From the NCBI GenBank assembly GCA_040880705.1, contig JBBDHU010000001.1, positions 417,408 through 481,407 of the forward strand: a stretch of 64,000 nt of DNA, given 5' to 3'. Every line of letters starts with the position of its first letter. Position 1 is the stretch's first letter. Below are positions 1 through 14,790 of this stretch, piece by piece. The notes under the pieces were generated by a model. It was given only the letters and a program-made list of their open reading frames with translations, did not search any database and was not told the DNA's origin. The stretch is from Actinomycetota bacterium. GTDB taxonomy: Bacteria > Actinomycetota > UBA4738 > JBBDHU01. The translations under genes were made by a program, and so were the position numbers.

Positions 1-325
1 CCAAATCGGTCGCCATGCGCGACACTATGCAGATCTGTTCACCTTGGCAGGAACACCCGAGGTGAAAAACATGCTTTCCTCCGACGAGTTCAAGGAAATC
101 CGTTTGGACTACGACGAGAAGAGCAGACGTTTCTACCCGAAATTCTACCGTCCTCCTGATGACCTGTCCTTCCGAGACAGCCCGGCTCTATTCCCTTCCG
201 ATGATCTGCGCGCCCAACTGGCGGGCGACTATGAGAAGGAGTGCTCGCGACTATTCTCTGGTGGAGATTACCCTGCGTTTGACGCTGTCCTCGCTCGGTT
301 ACAGGAAACGAGAGACCTGCTCTAA
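1..325 (+). CDS. 3' end of a hypothetical protein; the start lies upstream of the window
   Basis: ORF-track entry 44..325 starts at a TTG. The same frame has no stop back to base 2. No recognisable motif. Stop codon at 323-325. Confidence 0.3.
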   Translation, partial: QIGRHARHYADLFTLAGTPEVKNMLSSDEFKEIRLDYDEKSRRFYPKFYRPPDDLSFRDSPALFPSDDLRAQLAGDYEKECSRLFSGGDYPAFDAVLARLQETRDLL

Positions 326-524
326 CGGGAATTTGCTTATCGAAAGTCTGAGACAGCCCCCCGACATCTTTCGGCCGCGCTGGATCGACCGGGTTAAGCC
401 TCCCAGGATTGCCTTGCTCGTTCCTCCAGCACTTCTCGACACTTGACCCATTCTGTGACCGTGGCTCGCCTCCTCCTGCCCTCCGCGCACTCGCTGGGGT
501 GATTCCGGACGAAATGCTGGCGGT

Positions 525-1685
525 TCACACGCTGACACAACGGGTGCGTGAGATCCCCCTACCTCTTCCTTTCTGTTGGGACTCCTTGGCCGATTCCGGT
601 GCGAACAGCTGATCCAGGACAGATGGCCAAGTGAGCGTTACGTCAAGGCTCGCGGTAAGGCGTTCCCACCTTGCGTCGGTCGGGCGTGACTGCACTGCCA
701 GGATGCCGCGAATGCTGTGGTATCCGCGCTCCGAAAGTTGAGCGCGGTAGTCCAGAATCTGTCCAAGGCCCAGCCTCAGTTGCTTGGTCTGATTTCGTCT
801 GGAAAGGCTCTTCACTTCGACGCAGTTGAGGCAACCCTCGGAGATCCAACCGATATCAAACTCTACTCCACCCCTCACCCGAATTGGACTGTGACCGTGC
901 GCCCGGATGGTCCGCTCGATTTCCCGTTCGATGCGCTTATGAGCCGCTGTTGCGCGGTCAAGCTTGTCGGGATCAACGGTCCAAGGATCTCTACGCTGGC
1001 CAGGGGGCGAGGTAGACGGGCTGTAAGGAACGGCGCGCAAGGATGAAGTCTTTGCTACATCGTCGGGAAGAGCTGCCACCAGTTCGTAACCAGTCCTTGC
1101 AAGGGTCCGGGCGTAATCGAGTTTGGCGGGCAATTCCCGAATCGGAAGCCGCGCGTAGTCGGGTCCTAGCGCGATCGTGGAATTCCTGAAGAGTTCGAGC
1201 TCCCCTCGATGGAAGAACTGGAGACTCTTCCCAGGATAGATGTACAGGAATCGATCAGCCGGCTTGGTTGAGCCACGATGGAAGACTATTCCTCGCTGCT
1301 TAGTCGGCCTTTTTGCGTACCTGACCTGAGACCACCCGAGAATGGTTTCGATCAGAGAATTGAGCGCCGCACGCACGTTCGGATTCGCTACGGTATCGAC
1401 AAGTTCCTGAGATTGTCGAGGCAGTAGTTCTTGGGGTTTTCCGCGATCTATGAACCACCACCGCCCGTTCTCGCGACGTTGGCCCGTTATCTCACCCTTG
1501 CGAAGAATATACCTAAGGGGGAGGCCTGGCCGGTCGCGTGAGTCCCGAAGAATTCCGGCGGAATCGAGCCACCGCGCTGCCTCGACCGCCCGAACGGAGT
1601 CCAAATCCCGACGGCGAAGCTCCGCCTGAAGAAATGCGTTGATTCGATCCACGTTCGGGTCTCGCCCCTGACGCTTGGCTGTCAT
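525..1685 (-). CDS. PD-(D/E)XK (restriction-endonuclease-fold) nuclease-like protein, DUF3883/NOV-C-like C-terminal domain
   Basis: C-terminal motif FDIGW...LNCVEVKS...GLGQILDY matches the D...E-V-K signature of PD-(D/E)XK nucleases. The ATG at 1685 overlaps the upstream gene's stop (ATGA). The Arg/Pro-rich N-terminal extension in ORF-track entry 525..2063 is discarded. Confidence 0.6.
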   Translation of the reverse strand: MTAKRQGRDPNVDRINAFLQAELRRRDLDSVRAVEAARWLDSAGILRDSRDRPGLPLRYILRKGEITGQRRENGRWWFIDRGKPQELLPRQSQELVDTVANPNVRAALNSLIETILGWSQVRYAKRPTKQRGIVFHRGSTKPADRFLYIYPGKSLQFFHRGELELFRNSTIALGPDYARLPIRELPAKLDYARTLARTGYELVAALPDDVAKTSSLRAVPYSPSTSPPGQRRDPWTVDPDKLDRATAAHKRIEREIERTIRAHGHSPIRVRGGVEFDIGWISEGCLNCVEVKSLSRRNQTKQLRLGLGQILDYRAQLSERGYHSIRGILAVQSRPTDARWERLTASLDVTLTWPSVLDQLFAPESAKESQQKGRGRGISRTRCVSV

Positions 1686-3208
1686 TCCACCGAGTCGGCT
1701 CTCGGGATCAACTTCGGGCACCATGCGGTAAGGGGGCATGCGGGGCATTCGGGGCCGGTCGGATGACACCAGCCGACGCCGATGCGCCAAGCGGGAAGAT
1801 CGAGCTCGCCTGGGCGCTGGGGATGTAGCTCGCGCGCCACCGCGATCATTTGCGTGGGGTCGTCCCGCTCCGCCAGGCCGGTTCGCAGGAACACTCGCCG
1901 GATATGGATGTCGTAGGCGATGTCGCTTCCTTGCTGCTCGCGGACCGTGAGCTTTCGTTCGCGCATGAGAAGCTCCACGGCCATCGCGGCCTTCTTCTGG
2001 CCGATGCCGGGGAAGCGCTTCAACCGTGTCTGTAATTCGTCTGCGGTCGGTTGATCGTTCCAAATATTGCCGGCATCGCCCTCATACTCCTCGATGACGA
2101 TTCGCGCCGCGGCCACGAGCCAACCCGGAACGTTGTTCACGTACCTATGAAGGGCGGGCGGTTGTTTGACCGCTCTCAGCACGGCATCCGGATCGGCAGC
2201 GATCCTCTCGGGATCGAGGTAGCCGAGCCGTTGTTTCAGCAGATACGGCCCTTGCCAGGCGCGTTCGTACGGGATCCCCTGATCGAAGATGACCGACAGC
2301 AGGAAGGCGAAGTCGTCGCTCAAGACGAGAGCGTTCGCCTCGGGGTGCGACGTGAGGGCGGGCGCCTTGTCCTGTTCCGACCGGTCGAAATCGAGGAGCG
2401 CCTTCACGATCGCCTGCTTGTCGACGTGGACGGGCGGCTGGGGGGTGGGTTGTATGTGTGGCGCCTCCGCGGGAGCGGGTAGTTGTTCCAGTCGTCCCGT
2501 GAACCCGCGATCGGTGTACCAGGCGAGTTGCTCACCAAATCTCAGCCCCTCGAGGGGCCGGACTATCTCGGCGCCTTCCTTACGAAGACGGGATCCGATC
2601 GGCGTGACGTACTCGTCGCCTGCGTGTATCTCGAAAGCCTTTCCCTTCAGTTCCCCGAAGCGCTGCCGAAGAGCGGAGGTCACCCCTTCGCCCCACGAGA
2701 GCCGTTCAGGTCCGCGGAGCTTCACCATCTCGACGTCGTAGGGTTCGATCGATTCGTCGGGATCGATCAAGCCGTACTTGGCGCTCAGGATCAGCCAACG
2801 GAGGCCGCTCGCCTCGGCGTACGCGCGCCGCTTTCGCCACAGATCGGAGATGTACAGGTCCTTCGCTGCCGCAGCGACTGGTCCCTTCGTCGACACGCAG
2901 CCGAGGAGAATGGCTGCCGGTGCCCGACCGGGGTCCGGGATTGCCTTCGGGCTTGGCAGCGCGGTCGCGGTCCCGACACGTACGAACACGATCGTGCCTG
3001 TTGGAACGCCCGCCGCGGTTGTGTTGTAGCCGGCCTCCCGCCAGGCGCGCGAGTAGAGGTTTTGTTCCGAGTTCGACCAGAACTGCCGATGTTCGCGCGC
3101 GCTCTCCGGGAGCCGCTCACCGATGATCCCCTCGATCCGACGGAGGGTGAGTTCCAGGCGGCCCTCTTTGGAGTTCCTTAGGAAATCGGTCAGAGGCCGC
3201 AGCCGCAT
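1682..3208 (-). CDS. Fusion protein: uncharacterised N-terminal domain (about 280 aa, possibly Rossmann-like) plus C-terminal endonuclease III-like HhH-GPD DNA glycosylase with an Fe-S cluster loop
   Basis: HhH motif FPGIGQKKAAMAVELL. DIAYDIHIRRVFLRTGL aligns with the EndoIII catalytic-Asp segment (VDTHIFRV). C-terminal CHPTGPECPACPLTAWC has C-X6-C-X2-C-X5-C spacing. Stop at 1682. Start chosen at the ATG at 3208; the alternative at 3316 would overlap the divergent DUF3800 gene. Confidence 0.6.
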   Translation of the reverse strand: MRLRPLTDFLRNSKEGRLELTLRRIEGIIGERLPESAREHRQFWSNSEQNLYSRAWREAGYNTTAAGVPTGTIVFVRVGTATALPSPKAIPDPGRAPAAILLGCVSTKGPVAAAAKDLYISDLWRKRRAYAEASGLRWLILSAKYGLIDPDESIEPYDVEMVKLRGPERLSWGEGVTSALRQRFGELKGKAFEIHAGDEYVTPIGSRLRKEGAEIVRPLEGLRFGEQLAWYTDRGFTGRLEQLPAPAEAPHIQPTPQPPVHVDKQAIVKALLDFDRSEQDKAPALTSHPEANALVLSDDFAFLLSVIFDQGIPYERAWQGPYLLKQRLGYLDPERIAADPDAVLRAVKQPPALHRYVNNVPGWLVAAARIVIEEYEGDAGNIWNDQPTADELQTRLKRFPGIGQKKAAMAVELLMRERKLTVREQQGSDIAYDIHIRRVFLRTGLAERDDPTQMIAVARELHPQRPGELDLPAWRIGVGWCHPTGPECPACPLTAWCPKLIPRADSVE

Positions 3209-3295
3209 TCCTCGATCGTAGCGGTGAGGGCAAGGCGAGCGCCAACCAACCGCGGAGTCCGCGATGTTGTCGTAGGTCCGGGATAGCCTCGCCCG

Positions 3296-4093
3296 ATGAG
3301 AGGCGACCTCTGGCACGCTTATGTCGACGAGAGTGGAGATCGTGGCTGGCGCCCTCGACCGGATGATCTGGAGCCGGGTCAGCGCCGGGGATCATCACGA
3401 ATATTCTCGCTGACGGCCATCCTGCTTCCCGACGGGAGCCAGACGCAGTATCTCGAGCAATGGATGCGCGTCGGTATCCAAATCGGTAGGCGCCCTTCGG
3501 ATGTTATCCACTGGCAGAATGTGCGGGCTCCAGGGCAGAGGAAGCTACTGAGCTCGGTAGTAGCAGGTATGCCCGGCATTCAGGTCATCAGCGTCGTCCT
3601 ATGCAAGTGGCATCTGCCCAATGCGGAAGCACTAAGAGATCCCGGGCGACTCTACAACTGGACGCTCAGATTGCTGATCGAAAGGCTGTCATGGTTCGGC
3701 GAGAGAAATCAGGTACGAGTGGCTTCGACCTTCTCGCAGGTAAAGGGCATGCCGCCGGAGAGACTCCAGTCGTATCTACTTAGGCTGCGTGACATAGAAA
3801 CGCAAATCAGTTGGCCGTTCCTGAAACTTCCACCGCGCATCGACACTCCGGCCAACCGCCATATGCTTCAGATAGCCGATACGGCGAGTGGAGCTGTGTA
3901 TGCGGCCTTCGAATGGGACGATTACGGCTTCACGGAGCAGTCGTATCTCCAGCTCCTTCGTCCCGCTTTGTGGCGACGATCCGGCCGACCTCTGTGGAAG
4001 GACGGATTGAAGTATGGGCCTTGGCCCAACGAAGGTTGTCTTGCCGAACACGGGTGGTTCGACGATTTCTGCCAAGGAGGGGATTCAGAATGA
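3296..4093 (+). CDS. DUF3800 family protein
   Basis: N-terminal YVDESGD motif typical of DUF3800. Coherent 265-aa ORF. Confidence 0.55.
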   Translation: MRGDLWHAYVDESGDRGWRPRPDDLEPGQRRGSSRIFSLTAILLPDGSQTQYLEQWMRVGIQIGRRPSDVIHWQNVRAPGQRKLLSSVVAGMPGIQVISVVLCKWHLPNAEALRDPGRLYNWTLRLLIERLSWFGERNQVRVASTFSQVKGMPPERLQSYLLRLRDIETQISWPFLKLPPRIDTPANRHMLQIADTASGAVYAAFEWDDYGFTEQSYLQLLRPALWRRSGRPLWKDGLKYGPWPNEGCLAEHGWFDDFCQGGDSE

Positions 4094-4865
4094 AAAAAGG
4101 CCCAGGCCGTCGTCCGCACTCGGCGGTGTCACCGTTTCCGGCGACTGACGGTTGACCCTGAACCTGAATGCATTCTAGCGGAACCGAACGACAATTACGA
4201 GCACCCATTCAACTAAAGGCTAAGAGACCGGAACCTGGGATCGGAGCAGGTGTTCGCGAAGCTGCGGCTGACGGACACGCTCATTGCCGAGGCGGAGCGG
4301 GACTCCGCTCTCCTGCGCCGAAAGGGTCGCCTGATGCAGGCGGCCATGGCCGCGATGACCACGGCCATCTTGATCACTGTGCTGGGCACGGGGCTAAGAT
4401 GACCGCGGAGGAGCCGATGGATCGAACCCCCGGACAACCAGTGGGCAGTTCCGGCAACACCGGCGTGCCGCAGGAGGAGAAGCCCCCGCCCTTCGATCCC
4501 GACTGGGATCTCATCACCTTCCTCGAGGGCGGATCCAAAAGAGCGGTCGCGAGGTGGCTCCGCAGGGCGGAGCCCAGACCTACCTGAGGCGTCGCCGGAC
4601 GGGGAAGGACTCCAAGATGGCGGCCGGGAGCGCGCTGAGCCAGCGCGGGCGCTCGCGGCGACGGAAGTTCAAGTAGGAGATTCGACAACTAGCGTCTCGT
4701 CGATCGACTCTTGCCTGCGAGGCGAGCCTAGCCCAGCCATGTCCTATGCGAGTGTTAACGTCGCGCTCGGAAGGCAACCCCGTCGCGCTGCCCGCCGGCG
4801 GGTGGTGTCCTACATTGAAGCCGGGAACGATGCCTGGCTATGATGACGAGAGAAGGGGGAACCTG

Positions 4866-4997
4866 ATGACGAAGCCCACGCCCAAGCGGGGTCGAAAGAA
4901 GAGCACGAGAGTGATCCGGACTTCGGGCAAGCGCGCAAGCGTGTCGAGGAAGGTTATCCGACAAGCCATTTCCCGTGTCACAAAGAAGAGCGCCTGA
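4866..4997 (+). CDS. Very basic 43-aa protein (copy 1), partner of the downstream TIR-like protein
   Basis: MTKPTPKRGRKKSTRVIRTSGKRASVSRKVIRQAISRVTKKSA. RBS-like AGAAGGGGGAA upstream. A paralog at 7177..7308 differs mainly by synonymous or conservative changes. Confidence 0.45.
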   Translation: MTKPTPKRGRKKSTRVIRTSGKRASVSRKVIRQAISRVTKKSA

Positions 4998-5616
4998 CGT
5001 TCAAGCCCTCCCCGCCCGATACAACGACAACGTTTTCATCAACTGTCCCTTCGACGAGAAGTACCGTCCCTTCTTCCGGGCAATGGTCTTCACCATTTAC
5101 GACGCGGGATTCGTCGCGCGTTGCGCTCTGGAGGTGAGCGACGCTACCCAGAACCGCCTCCAGAAGATCATGGGGATCGTCGCTGAGTGCCGTTATGGCA
5201 TTCACGACGTCTCCCGTACCGCCCTCGGCCCGAATCGACTCCCCCGATTCAACATGCCGATGGAACTCGGAATCTTCCTGGGATCGAAAGAGTTCGGCGT
5301 CGACCACCATCGGCGAAAAGCTTGCCTGATTCTCGATACTAGGCAATACAGGTACCAGAAGTTCATTTCCGACATCGCAGGGCAGGATGTTCATGCGCAC
5401 AAGGGCAGCGTCCATGAATCGGTTGTGATCGTTCGCGACTGGCTCAGGACTGCATCCCACAGGACTCGTGTGCCGGGGGGAGAAAGGATCTGGGGCCGCT
5501 ATCAGAAGTTTCGCCGAAAACTGCCCGAAATCTGCCGGGAAACCGGACTGCGACACAAGACGCTGGCCTTCCTCGATTACACGGCTCTCGTCGAGGAGTG
5601 GCTGCTGAAGACCTAG
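4975..5616 (+). CDS. TIR-like / DUF4062-like (flavodoxin-fold) domain protein, copy 1, intact
   Basis: N-terminal NVFINCPFDEKY resembles the VFIS(Y/S)x(D/E) beta-A strand of TIR/DUF4062 domains. Later MPMELG may carry the acidic catalytic residue. The GTG start at 4975 overlaps the small upstream ORF by 23 nt in another frame. Confidence 0.45.
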   Translation: MSQRRAPDVQALPARYNDNVFINCPFDEKYRPFFRAMVFTIYDAGFVARCALEVSDATQNRLQKIMGIVAECRYGIHDVSRTALGPNRLPRFNMPMELGIFLGSKEFGVDHHRRKACLILDTRQYRYQKFISDIAGQDVHAHKGSVHESVVIVRDWLRTASHRTRVPGGERIWGRYQKFRRKLPEICRETGLRHKTLAFLDYTALVEEWLLKT

Positions 5617-5682: not shown

Positions 5683-6468
5683 GTGCCCCGACTCGTCCCC
5701 GTGCTTGTGCTCGTTGTGCTGGCGGCGTGCGCGCCGCGTTCCTCTCCGGAGTCTTCGGAGGCGCCTTCGGAGGGCCTGCCGTCCGTCGACACCCGGGCCG
5801 ACAAGCCGGCGCCGGCTTCCCCGTCGCCGCGCCCGGAAAAGCACGATAAGAAGGAGGAGCGCGCAACCGAGCGGCGGCCGTCGGGCCGCCGGGTCCTCGT
5901 CACTCGCGTCATAGACGGCGACACCATCGAGGTTCGACTCGGCGGACGAATCGTCGACATCCGTCTGATCGGCGTCGACACGCCCGAGACCGTCGCGCCC
6001 GGCCAGCCGGTCGCTTGCTACGGACCCGAGGCTTCGCGGTTCACCGGCCGCGCGCTCGAGGGCTCGAGGGTGCGTCTCACCTACGACGCGGAGCGCCGCG
6101 ATCGCTACGGGCGAACGCTCGCCTATGCGTTCCGCGGCGGGCGGATGTTCAACATGGCCCTGGTGTCGCGCGGGTTCGCAACGGTCGAGATTTATCCGCC
6201 GAACGACCGCTACGCCCCGCGCCTGTACGCCGCCGAGCGCTCCGCCCGCGCGCGCGGCAAAGGGCTGTGGCACGCCTGCCGCGACGGCGGAGGCCAGAAC
6301 AAGCCGAAGACATCAGGCGGATGCGATCGCTCGTACCCGGCGGTCTGCATCCCGCCGCCGCCCCCCGACCTCGACTGCGACGACGTGAAGGCCCACCGCT
6401 TCAGGGTTCGCGGCTCCGATCCGCATTACTTCGACGGCGACCGCGACGGAGTCGGCTGCGAGACCTGA
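5683..6468 (+). CDS. Thermonuclease (staphylococcal-nuclease-like) lipoprotein with C-terminal Excalibur calcium-binding domain
   Basis: Signal peptide plus lipobox LAAC. SNase-like core (RVIDGDTIEV...IGVDTPE...RYGRTLAY). C-terminal DCDD...DPHYFDGDRDGVGCE Excalibur motif. Confidence 0.8.
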   Translation: MPRLVPVLVLVVLAACAPRSSPESSEAPSEGLPSVDTRADKPAPASPSPRPEKHDKKEERATERRPSGRRVLVTRVIDGDTIEVRLGGRIVDIRLIGVDTPETVAPGQPVACYGPEASRFTGRALEGSRVRLTYDAERRDRYGRTLAYAFRGGRMFNMALVSRGFATVEIYPPNDRYAPRLYAAERSARARGKGLWHACRDGGGQNKPKTSGGCDRSYPAVCIPPPPPDLDCDDVKAHRFRVRGSDPHYFDGDRDGVGCET

Positions 6469-7091: not shown

Positions 7092-7176
7092 GCCCGCGCT
7101 TGCCTCAGAAGCGTCATTGCCCGGTGCTAGAGTTCAGTTGAGCCGCTCGATGCGATGGGACTTCGAAGGAGGGAGT

Positions 7177-7308
7177 ATGAGCAAGTCCGCGACCACGAAA
7201 ACCTCGAAGGGCAGCGCGCGAGTGATTCGGACTTCGGGTAAGAAAGCCAGCGTTTCGCGCAAGGTCATGCGACGGGCCGTATCCCGTGCCTCGAAGAAGA
7301 GCGCCTGA
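7177..7308 (+). CDS. Very basic 43-aa protein (copy 2)
   Basis: MSKSATTKTSKGSARVIRTSGKKASVSRKVMRRAVSRASKKSA. GGAGGGAG RBS 5 nt upstream. Paralog of 4866..4997. Confidence 0.45.
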   Translation: MSKSATTKTSKGSARVIRTSGKKASVSRKVMRRAVSRASKKSA

Positions 7309-7554
7309 GAATCAGCCCCTCCCCGCACGGTACGACGACAACGTCTTCATTAACTGCCCGTTTGACGAGAAGTACCGGCGGTTCTTCCGGGCGGTTACCT
7401 TCACGATCCACGACGCTGGCTTCGTCGCTCGCTGTGCATTAGAGATAAGCCACGGAACCCAGAACCGCCTAGACAGGATCATGGGGATCGTTTCCGAGTG
7501 GTTCTTGATTACACGCTGGCCATAGAGGAGTGGTTGGTCCGGAACCCTACCTAG
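7286..7554 (+). pseudogene. Internally deleted and frameshifted copy of the TIR-like protein gene (copy 2)
   Basis: The first 62 aa are collinear with 4975..5616, then the frame ends at 7525. The +1 frame directly downstream encodes FLDYTLAIEEWLVRNPT, matching the C-terminus (FLDYTALVEEWLLKT) of copy 1. This implies loss of about 130 codons. Confidence 0.5.
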
Positions 7555-13665: not shown

Positions 13666-14790
13666 TCAGCCCGGACAGAAGATCCCGGCCAAGGCCTCGG
13701 CCGGGCCGCCGTCGTCCTTTTCTCCGGCGGCGAAGACGAATCCACTCGGCGCTATGGAGGCCCCGTCGAACGAGTTCTCGGCGAGGCCCGGGTTGGGCGG
13801 CGACGTCAACACCCACCGGCGCCCGTTCCACCGAAGGGCCAAGGTGTCGTCGTCGGTCATGCCGACCGCCCACACGGGCCGGCGGCCTCTGGCAGTCACG
13901 TCGTTCAGCGCCGCTTGCATGCTGCCGCCGCTGGGAGCCTCCTTCTTCGACCAGGATTTGCCGTTGTAGTGAAAGGTCACCGGCCGGAAGTTCGCGACAG
14001 AGCCGAAGAAGCCGACGGCCCATACGTCGTCCTTTCGGATCACCTCCACGCCGAGAAGCGTCGTGGGGTTGCCCGTGGCGGGAGGGTTCATCTTCTTCCA
14101 CTTCGCGTGGTCCTTCACGAGGATGAGGGGCTGCGTGGGGTTCAAACCGCTCTGGTAGCTCCCCACGGCGAAACCGGTTCGCGGTCCGAGCATGTCGACA
14201 TCGGTCAGGCGGTTGAAGATCGCGCCGGGGTTCGCGCTCTCGAAGGTGACCCACTCGTCGCCGTTCCAGCGCTGAACGAGGGTCAGCTCCTTGGTCGGCC
14301 CTTCCTCGCTCCCTACCGCCCAGACGGCGTTTCCGGCGACCGCGGAAACGCCGTTGAACTGGCCCTCCTCGGCGGGCGAGGGCGACATGATCGTCCAGTC
14401 GATGCCGTCCCAATTCATGGCCAGGGGGAAGTCGTTGCCGGTCGCGCTGTAGCGGCCCACCGCCCAGGCGTTCAATTCGCCGATCGCATCGACGGCGTTG
14501 AGAACGTTCGCCTCGCTGTTCTGATTCGGACTCGTGACAACAGACCATAGGGTCCCGTCGAAGTGCTGGATCATCGTTTGGGGTGACCCCCCGAGATCCT
14601 CGTAGGAACCGACCGCCCATACGTCGCCCAGGGTCCGAGCGTCAATCCCGTTGAACCCGCGCTCGTTCGTGCCGGGATTCTGGGTCGAAGCCATTTCGTA
14701 CCATCCGGGCGTACATGCCGCGGCTGCGGGACCGGGATTCATGATCCCGATGACGAGCGAGATAAGCGCGGCCGCGGCTATGCGTCTCAC
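13666..14790 (-). CDS. Secreted repeat protein of unknown function (about 7 repeats ending in VWAVG)
   Basis: Signal peptide. Repeats of the form ...HFDG..W..V.......L.GV.A.....VWAVG. Paralog of 38910..40175. Confidence 0.65.
   Translation of the reverse strand: MRRIAAAALISLVIGIMNPGPAAAACTPGWYEMASTQNPGTNERGFNGIDARTLGDVWAVGSYEDLGGSPQTMIQHFDGTLWSVVTSPNQNSEANVLNAVDAIGELNAWAVGRYSATGNDFPLAMNWDGIDWTIMSPSPAEEGQFNGVSAVAGNAVWAVGSEEGPTKELTLVQRWNGDEWVTFESANPGAIFNRLTDVDMLGPRTGFAVGSYQSGLNPTQPLILVKDHAKWKKMNPPATGNPTTLLGVEVIRKDDVWAVGFFGSVANFRPVTFHYNGKSWSKKEAPSGGSMQAALNDVTARGRRPVWAVGMTDDDTLALRWNGRRWVLTSPPNPGLAENSFDGASIAPSGFVFAAGEKDDGGPAEALAGIFCPG

What the first reader, a model, noticed from the sequence alone, without database searches (positions are those of the whole stretch)
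525..3316. Coupled operon: domain-fused endonuclease-III-like DNA glycosylase followed by a PD-(D/E)XK nuclease, a candidate base-excision-initiated restriction/anti-phage system
The upstream gene (1682..3208/3316, minus strand) ends in a recognisable HhH-GPD glycosylase domain. It has the HhH motif FPGIGQKKAAM, retaining the Lys used by bifunctional glycosylase/lyases. The segment IAYDIHIRRV corresponds to the catalytic-Asp segment VDTHIFRV of EndoIII. The C-terminal C-X6-C-X2-C-X5-C spacing (CHPTGPECPACPLTAWC) matches the [4Fe-4S] cluster loop of EndoIII/MutY. Unlike housekeeping Nth/MutY, it carries a roughly 280-aa N-terminal region of unknown function (…TIVFVRVGTA…LYISDLWRKRRAYAEASGLRWLILSAKYGLIDPDESIEPYD…). 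Its stop overlaps the start of a second gene (ATGA at 1682-1685). That second protein's C-terminus has a textbook PD-(D/E)XK core (FDIGW…EVK…GLGQILDY, DUF3883/NOV-C-like). A glycosylase that creates abasic sites, physically coupled to a restriction-fold nuclease, sits in an island with DUF3800, TIR-like genes and TA modules. That is the architecture expected for a modification-sensing or base-excision-initiated defence system, not for housekeeping repair. I cannot name a described system with this two-gene composition.
Basis: partly seen in the sequence, partly recalled or inferred. Interest (0 to 1): 0.85.

Follow-up and report, generated by a model that had tools for sequence, protein, structure and literature searches.

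The report
DpdC-like glycosylase beside unrelated restriction nuclease
Two overlapping genes in a defence island encode a three-domain DNA base-excision enzyme and a restriction-type nuclease, but across about 85 related loci they are almost never partners, so the interesting object is the uncharacterised fusion enzyme itself, which probably attacks chemically modified phage DNA.

Summary
Gene A (1682-3208, minus strand, 508 aa) ends in an EndoIII-like HhH-GPD domain with the catalytic Lys and Asp and a Cys4 iron-sulfur loop. Gene B (525-1685, 386 aa) starts in an ATGA overlap and has a PD-(D/E)XK core at its C-terminus.

The "unknown" N-terminus of gene A is DUF7662 plus DUF6884. DUF6884 has the YaaA fold and is distantly related to DpdC, which edits 7-deazaguanine in DNA.

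The two-gene system idea does not hold:
- Of 85 other loci with DUF6884 and this glycosylase, one has a gene-B-type nuclease nearby.
- The closest full-length gene B relatives lack the glycosylase.
- GC3 differs (0.77 against 0.61).

The conserved link is DUF6884 with the glycosylase, either fused or as adjacent coupled genes. The same DUF7662-DUF6884 module is elsewhere fused to a GIY-YIG nuclease. Fusion loci sit among Mrr, NERD, Zac, AbiE, helicase and transposase genes. Stand-alone relatives of the glycosylase sit among housekeeping genes.

Best reading: gene A is an autonomous, modification-dependent restriction glycosylase/lyase. Gene B is a separately acquired nuclease of a family used in type IV restriction enzymes. 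This is a new variant of the recently described defence glycosylases. No biochemistry exists, and the substrate is inferred.

The parts
1682..3208 (-). Gene A, 508 aa. Architecture is DUF7662, then DUF6884, then a linker, then an HhH-GPD/[4Fe-4S] glycosylase-lyase. The longest ORF runs to a GTG at 3316.
3005..3196 (-). DUF7662 domain (residues 5-68). It is a small alpha/beta module of unknown role, replaced by DUF7669 or absent in relatives.
   Evidence: Pfam E-value 1.4e-14. The AF2 model is confident here.
2513..2911 (-). DUF6884 domain (residues 100-232) with the YaaA 'cantaloupe' fold. Motifs are C104xxxK108, DLY, R127R128 and L141-S-A-x-x-G146. It is a distant DpdC relative.
1685..2419 (-). 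EndoIII-like HhH-GPD catalytic domain (residues 264-508). The HhH Lys K405 is at 1994-1996, and the catalytic Asp D433 is at 1910-1912.
1718..1768 (-). [4Fe-4S] cluster loop, C481-X6-C488-X2-C491-X5-C497.
   Evidence: Read directly from the sequence. It aligns to the EndoIII and MutY loops and is invariant.
1682..1685 (-). ATGA stop/start overlap that couples gene A to gene B.
525..1685 (-). Gene B, 386 aa. The N-terminal region (1-220) is poorly modelled and has a possible excisionase-type HTH. The C-terminus is a PD-(D/E)XK nuclease. GC3 is 0.61.
570..974 (-). PD-(D/E)XK nuclease domain (residues 238-372). Conserved residues are H249, D277, E290, K292, Q302, R304 and Q309xxxY313.
   Evidence: pLDDT is 85-91. 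Foldseek hits are N.BspD6I, NucS, Hjc and XisH. The residues are invariant in 105 relatives.
44..325 (+). 3' end of an AbiEii toxin gene. The rest of that gene, and AbiEi, lie beyond the window edge. It is convergent with gene B.
   Evidence: L001 12884-13840 AbiEii, 13837-14565 AbiEi
3296..4093 (+). DUF3800 gene, divergent from gene A, with GC3 0.63.

Best explanation
The locus holds two co-transcribed but evolutionarily independent defence-type genes.

Gene A is a self-contained base-excision restriction enzyme. Its DUF6884 domain has the YaaA fold and belongs to the same superfamily as DpdC, which hydrates the nitrile of preQ0 inside DNA. This domain binds DNA and flips out, and possibly chemically processes, a non-canonical base. 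The fused EndoIII-like domain has an intact Lys/Asp pair and iron-sulfur loop. It excises the base and nicks the strand by beta-elimination, which fragments heavily modified foreign DNA.

The most likely substrates are 7-deazaguanine-type or other hypermodified phage bases.

Gene B is a separate restriction endonuclease. Its nuclease domain belongs to a large unnamed PD-(D/E)XK family that is elsewhere fused to the modified-base readers EVE and SRA. In this lineage gene B landed immediately downstream of gene A. It may add to the damage, but gene A does not need it.

Shown here: the folds, the conserved residues, the domain combinations, the neighbourhood statistics and the composition. Inferred: enzymatic activity, substrate and role in defence.
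For: - Architecture and active sites are established.
- DUF6884 and this HhH-GPD clade are linked by fusion in at least 492 protein clusters. They are also linked as adjacent genes with GTGA overlaps in L051, L058 and L063, and as divergent neighbours in L028.
- The same DUF7662-DUF6884 module is fused to a GIY-YIG nuclease instead. This is seen in L098 on Rhodococcus plasmids and in about 22 of the 120 best DUF6884 hits.
- The DpdC link has several supports. PADLOC DpdC models hit DUF6884 proteins at 1e-8 and 6e-4. In Variovorax a DUF6884 gene is translationally coupled to dpdB. A protein in an Enterobacter dpd cluster hits the DUF6884 profile below threshold. PMC11888242 lists 'DUF6884, e.g. 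dpdC'. DpdC activity is described in PMC10164549.
- Fusion neighbours are Mrr_cat (3), NERD (2), an MTES_1575 restriction-type nuclease, DEAD/ResIII/UvrD helicases, STAND-like ATPases, transposases, ZacB/ZacC and AbiE. Neighbours of stand-alone HhH-GPD genes are ABC transporters, catalase and dehydrogenases.
- The fusion is not found in viral contigs.
- There is precedent. HhH-superfamily Dag glycosylases with a Lys-Asp pair defend against 7-deazaguanine phages (10.1101/2025.10.29.685425). Brig3 works with BapA as a processing enzyme followed by a glycosylase (PMC13160076).
- Gene B stands alone. Its domain family has 1535 representatives, with EVE, SAD_SRA, MTaX1 and Mrr_N as partner domains. 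Its relatives sit in restriction-type clusters.
Against: - No experiment exists for any member of the fusion family, and the substrate is a guess.
- The relationship of DUF6884 to DpdC is distant and below Pfam's curated threshold: 23.6 bits against a cut-off of 30 for the dpd-cluster protein.
- No dpdA, dpdB or que genes were seen next to the fusions.
- The B. subtilis DUF6884 protein YfjM was pulled down on abasic and ribonucleotide baits (PMC10220248, PMC11701544). That fits a repair or AP-site role equally well.
- Stand-alone DUF6884 genes are common on phages and plasmids. That argues for a function useful to mobile elements, not only to hosts.
- Gene A has host-like GC3, as a long-resident or housekeeping gene would.
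- The ATGA coupling shows that in this organism the two proteins are made together, so cooperation cannot be excluded.
Confidence: 0.5

Rival explanations
1. Genes A and B form an obligate two-gene, base-excision-initiated restriction system. The glycosylase makes AP sites or nicks, and the PD-(D/E)XK partner converts them into double-strand breaks.
For: - The ATGA overlap and shared strand are confirmed.
- Both active sites are intact.
- A second, independent locus (L009) has a gene-B-family nuclease 1.7 kb upstream of a fusion homologue, separated only by an IS.
- Other nuclease families often lie near fusions.
Against: - Only 1 of 85 other fusion loci has the gene B family nearby.
- P0127 and P0128 lack a glycosylase neighbour.
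- The closest relatives of gene A (L004, L102) instead have HD_4, UDG, DUF1643 and ADP-ribosylglycohydrolase neighbours.
- GC3 is discordant between the two genes.
- PADLOC has no model for gene B.
Confidence: 0.1
2. Gene A is a specialised DNA-repair enzyme. DUF6884 recognises abasic sites or a particular lesion, and the EndoIII-like domain (or GIY-YIG in the sister architecture) incises there. Its location in variable regions is incidental.
For: - YfjM, a DUF6884 member, is enriched on abasic and ribonucleotide-containing DNA (PMC10220248). Pfam curators propose a repair role (PMC11701544).
- YaaA is a DNA-binding stress protein, and the fold match is confirmed.
- EndoIII and GIY-YIG are both classic repair-incision folds.
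- Gene A has host-like GC3.
Against: - The family is sporadic in distribution and sits in defence or mobile-element neighbourhoods. This contrasts sharply with stand-alone members of the same glycosylase clade.
- It is directly embedded after ZacB/ZacC in Micromonospora.
- The GIY-YIG version lies on plasmids between IS elements.
- PADLOC lists the DUF6884 module as defence candidate PDC-M57A.
Confidence: 0.2
3. Gene A belongs to a DNA-modification (self-marking or editing) pathway rather than to restriction. The DpdC-like domain converts a base in host DNA, and the HhH-GPD domain removes or exchanges bases to install or proofread the mark.
For: - DpdC is a modification enzyme (PMC10164549).
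- DUF6884 is coupled to DpdB in Variovorax.
- Stand-alone DUF6884 occurs on phages and plasmids, which benefit from self-modification.
- The HhH-GPD-fold queuine salvage enzyme DUF2419 ranks high in the fold searches.
Against: - No transglycosylase, DpdA/DpdB or preQ0 biosynthesis genes appeared among the fusion neighbours.
- The HhH Lys predicts strand nicking, which is harmful on self DNA.
- The alternative GIY-YIG effector is a cutter, not a writer.
Confidence: 0.07

Closest known systems
Dag defence-associated DNA glycosylases (Getz et al., bioRxiv 10.1101/2025.10.29.685425)
   Same: Both belong to the HhH superfamily and have a Lys-Asp catalytic pair. Dag1 shows bifunctional behaviour. 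Both are encoded in mobile or defence contexts distinct from housekeeping glycosylases. Dag targets are 7-deazaguanine-type bases, the chemistry that DpdC-like domains deal with.
   Different: Dags are small single-domain integron cassettes from Vibrio, and the paper mentions no Fe-S loop and no accessory domain. Gene A is an EndoIII-like [4Fe-4S] clade fused to DUF7662 and DUF6884. Sequence membership could not be tested, and no phage data exist.
Brig3-BapA and Brig1 (PMC13160076, PMC11078745)
   Same: Both use base excision as immunity. Brig3-BapA pairs a base-processing enzyme with a glycosylase in one operon, which matches the logic proposed here for DUF6884 plus HhH-GPD. An ADP-ribosylglycohydrolase gene lies next to the glycosylase in both settings.
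   Different: Brig enzymes have the UDG fold and BapA is ASCH-like. Their targets are hmC and glucosyl-hmC, and the two activities sit on separate proteins.
END nucleases (PMC12191111)
   Same: An EndoIII/OGG-like domain is combined with a DNA-cutting activity to attack hypermodified phage DNA.
   Different: In END nucleases the EndoIII domain is catalytically dead and acts as the sensor, fused to a PLD nuclease. Here the EndoIII domain keeps all its catalytic residues and is the effector, and the nuclease is a separate, non-conserved gene.
DpdC of the Dpd 7-deazaguanine restriction-modification system, and YaaA/DUF328
   Different: The similarity is at superfamily level only and below curated thresholds. 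The domain here is half the length of DpdC. No dpdA or dpdB is adjacent. Activity is unknown.
R.PabI-family restriction glycosylases (PMC10273834)
   Same: These are restriction by base excision, with an intrinsic AP-lyase activity and possible help from separate endonucleases.
   Different: They have the HALFPIPE fold, are sequence-specific, and are blocked by a cognate methyltransferase. No methyltransferase partner is seen here.
Type IV restriction endonucleases with EVE or SRA readers (for gene B)
   Same: Relatives carrying gene B's nuclease domain have EVE, SAD_SRA, MTaX1 or Mrr_N at the N-terminus, and they sit in restriction clusters.
   Different: Gene B's own N-terminal 220 residues match none of these readers and are modelled with low confidence.

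Membership tests
HhH-GPD / endonuclease III superfamily | HhH-GPD fold | tested here: met
HhH-GPD / endonuclease III superfamily | Catalytic Asp after the HhH motif, and the Lys of bifunctional members | tested here: met
   D433 and K405 align to the EndoIII Asp and Lys and are invariant in 18 homologues.
HhH-GPD / endonuclease III superfamily | C-X6-C-X2-C-X5-C iron-sulfur cluster loop | tested here: met
   C481/488/491/497 are present in the sequence, align to the known loops and are invariant.
Nth (TIGR01083), TIGR03252 equivalogs, and Pfam HhH-GPD | Score above the curated cut-off | tested here: not met
   TIGR01083 scores 18 against a cut-off of 211.7. TIGR03252 scores 104.6 against 136.5 and covers only part of the model. 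PF00730 scores 14 against 26.2. Gene A is a related clade, not an orthologue of housekeeping Nth.
DUF6884 (PF21818) | Score above the gathering threshold, plus the CxxxK and LSAxxG motifs | tested here: met
   The score is 143.8 bits against a cut-off of 30. C104VSTK108 and L141SAKYG146 are present.
DpdC (Dpd system) | Significant full-length match to DpdC models, and location in a dpdA/dpdB cluster | tested here: not met
   There is only a 52-residue match at E-value 6e-4. No dpd genes lie nearby.
PD-(D/E)XK nuclease superfamily (gene B) | D...(D/E)XK motif on an alpha-beta-beta-beta-alpha-beta core | tested here: met
   D277 and E290-V-K292 are invariant. The model is confident across the core. 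All top Foldseek hits are PD-(D/E)XK enzymes, though E-values are only about 1e-3.
   There is no hit. The only Pfam signal is XisH at E-value 0.019.
Dag defence glycosylases | Sequence or structural membership in a validated Dag cluster, and protection against phages with modified guanine | not testable with these tools
   Dag sequences and models were not available here, and there is no phage assay. Only the shared superfamily, catalytic pair and mobile context could be checked.
END nucleases | Inactivated EndoIII sensor fused to a nuclease in one polypeptide | tested here: not met
   The catalytic residues are conserved, and the nuclease is a separate gene.
PADLOC candidate system PDC-M57 | PDC-M57A plus its partner component or components | tested here: inconclusive
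   The PDC-M57A model matches the DUF6884 part at 6e-30. The other components of the candidate system are not known to me, and none matched the neighbours tested.
Conserved two-gene system (gene A with gene B) | Co-occurrence of both families across lineages | tested here: not met
   Co-occurrence is found in 1 of 85 loci, and gene B's full-length homologues have no glycosylase nearby.

The most novel reading that the evidence does not exclude
DUF6884 is a DpdC-like catalytic reader for 7-deazaguanine or another hypermodified base in phage DNA. The family is a modular single-chain 'recognise or unmask, then cut' immune enzyme. The same DUF7662-DUF6884 head is wired either to an EndoIII-type glycosylase/lyase, as in this window, or to a GIY-YIG nuclease. 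The conserved Cys-Lys-Ser pocket would convert or covalently engage the modified base so that the fused glycosylase can excise it. That would be a one-polypeptide equivalent of BapA plus Brig3, aimed at modified purines.
Probability: 0.18. Interest if true: 0.8.

Novelty: new variant of a known kind. Interest (0 to 1): 0.55.

Why it matters
Base excision has only recently been recognised as an antiviral strategy (Brig1, Brig3, Dag). The known examples are single-domain enzymes from Proteobacteria and soil clones.

Here there is a widespread family, with at least 492 protein clusters, mainly in Actinomycetota, Acidimicrobiia and Chloroflexota. In it an active EndoIII-type iron-sulfur glycosylase is permanently tied to a DpdC/YaaA-like domain, and the same head domain alternatively carries a GIY-YIG nuclease.

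If it restricts phages, three things follow:
- It would give DUF6884 and DUF7662 a function.
- It would extend glycosylase immunity to high-GC soil bacteria and their heavily modified actinophages.
- It could supply a reagent that detects or cleaves 7-deazaguanine-type DNA.

The work also shows that the attractive glycosylase-plus-nuclease 'system' reading of this locus comes from two defence genes lying next to each other. Separately, it delineates a large PD-(D/E)XK family that has no Pfam model.

Tried and rejected
1. A conserved partner for gene A. All-against-all clustering of ORFs in 80 genome loci found no neighbour family shared by the fusion loci. Cluster 4 belongs to the stand-alone Acidimicrobiia genes.
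2. Gene B next to fusions. tblastn and an HMM of the nuclease domain over 184 loci found only L009.
3. A phage origin for the fusion. Only three viral contigs matched, and all carried the stand-alone HhH-GPD part. Phage and plasmid records hold DUF6884 alone or with GIY-YIG, never with HhH-GPD.
4. Brig3-BapA as a homologue. Brig3 has the UDG fold and BapA is ASCH-like, so the resemblance is analogy only.
5. Other Pfam domains in the longer HhH-GPD proteins. None were found. They do carry a conserved unnamed N-terminal domain.
6. A promoter and terminator scan of 300-3500 gave nothing above the shuffled expectation.
7. My crude GC3-based gene caller missed gene B because of its atypical composition, so I added it by hand.
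8. The literature holds nothing on the fusion, DUF7662, DUF7669 or PDC-M57.
9. No test of DpdC membership with an authenticated DpdC sequence was possible. I used a hypothetical protein adjacent to dpdA in an Enterobacter plasmid as a proxy.

Full report
WHAT IS THERE

On the minus strand, the ORF listing gives a 544-aa ORF at 1682..3316 and a 512-aa ORF at 525..2063. The real gene A start is most likely the ATG at 3208. The identical database protein P0001 has 508 aa, homologues align from that point, and GAGGA precedes it. Gene B starts at the ATG at 1685, inside the sequence GGTGGA-ATGA. Gene A's TGA therefore overlaps gene B's ATG.

GENE A

Pfam finds DUF7662 (residues 5-68, E-value 1.4e-14) and DUF6884 (100-232, E-value 4.6e-42). 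The generic HhH-GPD model scores below its threshold. NCBIfam gives a partial match to TIGR03252, an uncharacterised actinobacterial HhH-GPD family, at 4.6e-30.

The AlphaFold2 model built on 18 homologues has mean pLDDT 86. It shows three domains separated by disordered linkers at 80-93 and 237-256.

- phmmer against PDB aligns GIGQK405 with EndoIII GVGRK. It aligns IAYD433IH with IAVDTH, and the four cysteines with the EndoIII cluster loop.
- Across 18 homologues with 44-52% identity to gene A, K405, K406, D433 and the four Cys are invariant. So are DUF6884 residues R127, R128, L141, S142 and G146, among others. C104 and K108 are nearly invariant.

Both enzymatic-looking domains are therefore under selection. 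Unlike the EndoIII domain of END nucleases (PMC12191111), this one is not inactivated.

GENE B

Pfam, NCBIfam and PADLOC give nothing except a weak XisH hit. The word-indexed search found only five partial relatives. The exhaustive representative search found 1535 clusters, nearly all matching only residues ~215-365. Only P0127 and P0128 share the full length.

The AF2 model is confident only for residues 238-372. Its Foldseek hits are uniformly PD-(D/E)XK enzymes: N.BspD6I, NucS/EndoMS, Hjc, XisH, Cdn1 and Can2. The E-values are marginal.

H249, D277, E290, K292, Q302, R304 and Q309 are invariant in 105 relatives. N-terminal partners in that family include EVE, SAD_SRA, MTaX1 and Mrr_N. One relative sits between a Dcm-type methylase, an SNF2 helicase, a HATPase and an EcoRII-N protein. 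The domain is thus a cutting module of restriction-type, often modification-dependent, enzymes.

IS IT A TWO-GENE SYSTEM?

I collected loci encoding relatives of gene A from three sources: 185,579 species genomes, metagenomes and exact-protein look-ups. Excluding the window's own lineage (L001, L002), 85 loci carry both DUF6884 and this HhH-GPD clade. Of these, 67 have at least 1.2 kb downstream and 62 have at least 1.2 kb upstream.

An HMM of the gene B nuclease domain hits exactly one of them, L009. There the nuclease lies upstream and shares only the C-terminal domain, at 32% identity. An ISAZ013 transposase gene separates it from the fusion.

The two full-length gene B relatives sit next to helicases or unknown genes, not glycosylases. 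The closest gene A relatives, at 50% identity (L004 and L102), share a different neighbourhood. It runs HD_4, a 296-aa gene, the fusion, a convergent UDG-family gene, DUF1643 and ADP-ribosylglycohydrolases.

Composition agrees. The median GC3 of 42 window genes is 0.78. Gene A is 0.77, while gene B is 0.61, DUF3800 is 0.63 and AbiEii is 0.62.

The pair is therefore a lineage-specific juxtaposition, co-transcribed here but not a conserved system. The L009 case, and the frequent presence of other nuclease families, keep a weak association alive. Those families are Mrr (3), NERD (2), MTES_1575 and an RTasPDDEXK-like gene in L006. I cannot separate this from ordinary defence-island clustering.

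WHAT IS CONSERVED INSTEAD

DUF6884 and the glycosylase go together in several arrangements:
- They are fused in at least 492 protein clusters.
- They are encoded by adjacent genes with GTGA overlaps in L051, L058 and L063.
- They are divergent neighbours in L028.

The N-terminal cap varies between DUF7662, DUF7669 and none. Longer forms of ~690 aa probably carry an extra unnamed domain between the two halves.

The same DUF7662-DUF6884 head is also fused to a GIY-YIG nuclease. This is seen in L098 on Rhodococcus plasmids between IS elements. It also accounts for about 22 of the 120 best DUF6884 hits. A constant DNA-facing head with interchangeable DNA-cutting tails is how type IV restriction enzymes are built.

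CONTEXT

The 64 genes within two positions of 27 fusion loci are enriched for defence and mobile-element functions:
- DEAD, ResIII and UvrD helicases.
- Mrr_cat, NERD and an MTES_1575 restriction-type nuclease.
- AAA_16 and AAA_22 ATPases.
- ADP-ribosylglycohydrolases and HD_4 proteins.
- Transposases.

In Micromonospora the fusion overlaps the end of a ZacB-ZacC operon. In the window it lies between AbiE and DUF3800.

As a control I took 113 neighbours of 44 stand-alone HhH-GPD genes of the same clade. These are ABC transporters, catalase, dehydrogenases and peptidases. The fusion therefore lives in the accessory, defence-rich genome, while its single-domain cousins look like housekeeping genes.

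WHAT DUF6884 MAY DO

- Pfam's curators relate it to YaaA and note the CxxxK and LSAxxG motifs (PMC11701544).
- B. subtilis YfjM was captured on abasic and ribonucleotide baits (PMC10220248).
- PADLOC's DpdC models hit DUF6884 proteins.
- A DUF6884 gene is translationally coupled to dpdB in Variovorax megaplasmids, beside a CRISPR-Cas locus.
- A protein upstream of dpdA in an Enterobacter dpd cluster matches the DUF6884 profile weakly.
- A genome-mining paper lists DUF6884 as the dpdC domain (PMC11888242).
- DpdC converts preQ0 in DNA to ADG (PMC10164549).

The link to DpdC is at superfamily level only, and it fails curated thresholds. Stand-alone DUF6884 genes are common on plasmids and phages.

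MECHANISM PROPOSED

Gene A binds DNA through DUF7662 and DUF6884. DUF6884 flips out, and perhaps chemically converts, a non-canonical base. The EndoIII-like domain then removes the base and nicks the strand through K405 and D433. Dense modification would lead to fragmentation.

Two precedents make this plausible:
- HhH-superfamily Dag glycosylases with a Lys-Asp pair restrict phages carrying 7-deazaguanine, preQ0 or archaeosine (10.1101/2025.10.29.685425).
- The BapA-then-Brig3 relay acts on glucosyl-hmC (PMC13160076).

Gene B would act as an independent restriction nuclease that may add double-strand breaks.

I give about 0.5 to the general model, in which gene A is an autonomous defence glycosylase acting on modified or foreign DNA. 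I give about 0.2 to the specific 7-deazaguanine target. The main rival is a lesion or AP-site repair enzyme, at about 0.2. The obligate two-gene system gets about 0.1.

VERDICT

The sequence observation is correct and the defence flavour is supported. The headline architecture of a glycosylase coupled to a nuclease is not a conserved system. The novelty lies in the uncharacterised DUF7662-DUF6884-EndoIII fusion family and its GIY-YIG sister. I rate it a new variant of the recently established class of defence glycosylases, with interest 0.55.

Noticed in passing
window 4746-5616 and 7117-7525: A two-gene module is duplicated. It consists of a small Lys/Arg-rich ORF followed by a protein starting ...NDNVFINCPFDEKY... 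The first copy of that protein has 213 aa and the second is truncated. A 288-nt direct repeat at 78% identity links 4902-5189 to 7213-7500.
   Followed up: partly
L046 3567-4643, L055 5373-6359, L086 8353-9339, L102 5403-6799: ADP-ribosylglycohydrolase genes lie within a few genes of DUF6884-HhH-GPD fusions in four independent loci. The Brig3-BapA locus in PMC13160076 also has one next to its glycosylase.
   Followed up: no
L004 and L102 (closest full-length relatives of gene A): The two loci share a neighbourhood: HD_4 protein, a 296-aa gene, the fusion, a convergent UDG-family glycosylase and DUF1643. In L102 two ADP-ribosylglycohydrolase genes follow further downstream. This may be a multi-enzyme base-modification or base-excision cluster.
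   Followed up: partly
L051 6411-7709, L058 6411-7745, L063 6417-7748, L017 5419-6798: HhH-GPD proteins of 430-460 aa carry a conserved N-terminal domain of roughly 180 aa (FxFRWP..ExFExGW...YGLGxRxVYGRxR). It has no Pfam match. It is probably the insert that makes many fusions about 690 aa long.
   Followed up: partly
window 570-974 (gene B C-terminus) and P0127-P0275: The gene B nuclease domain defines a large PD-(D/E)XK family with 1535 representative clusters at 50% identity. No Pfam model covers it. It is found fused to EVE, SAD_SRA, MTaX1, Mrr_N and HTH domains.
   Followed up: partly
L087 1-7599, also L006 and L007 (Micromonospora): The DUF7669-DUF6884-HhH-GPD gene overlaps the stop of a ZacC-like helicase in a DUF6361-ZacB-ZacC operon. 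This suggests a four-gene variant of the Zac candidate defence system. A PD-(D/E)XK-like gene (RTasPDDEXK, E-value 3e-6) follows in L006.
   Followed up: partly
L097 7934-9501 (Variovorax plasmids): A DpdB homologue (E-value 1e-111) is translationally coupled to a 157-aa DUF6884 protein, next to a type I-E CRISPR-Cas locus. No dpdA is annotated nearby.
   Followed up: partly
window 1-4100: AbiEii, gene B and DUF3800 have GC3 of 0.61-0.63, against a window median of 0.78. Gene A, lying between them, is host-like at 0.77. This suggests piecemeal assembly of the island around an older gene.
   Followed up: yes
L087 upstream, L104 6617-7285, L092 5709-6494: DUF429 genes recur near fusion loci and also near a gene B homologue.
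   Followed up: no
window 5683-6468: A staphylococcal-nuclease-like protein carries a weak Excalibur motif and has very high GC3 (0.85). It matches PADLOC model C3a212 (SNc+LTD) at E-value 2e-32.
   Followed up: no
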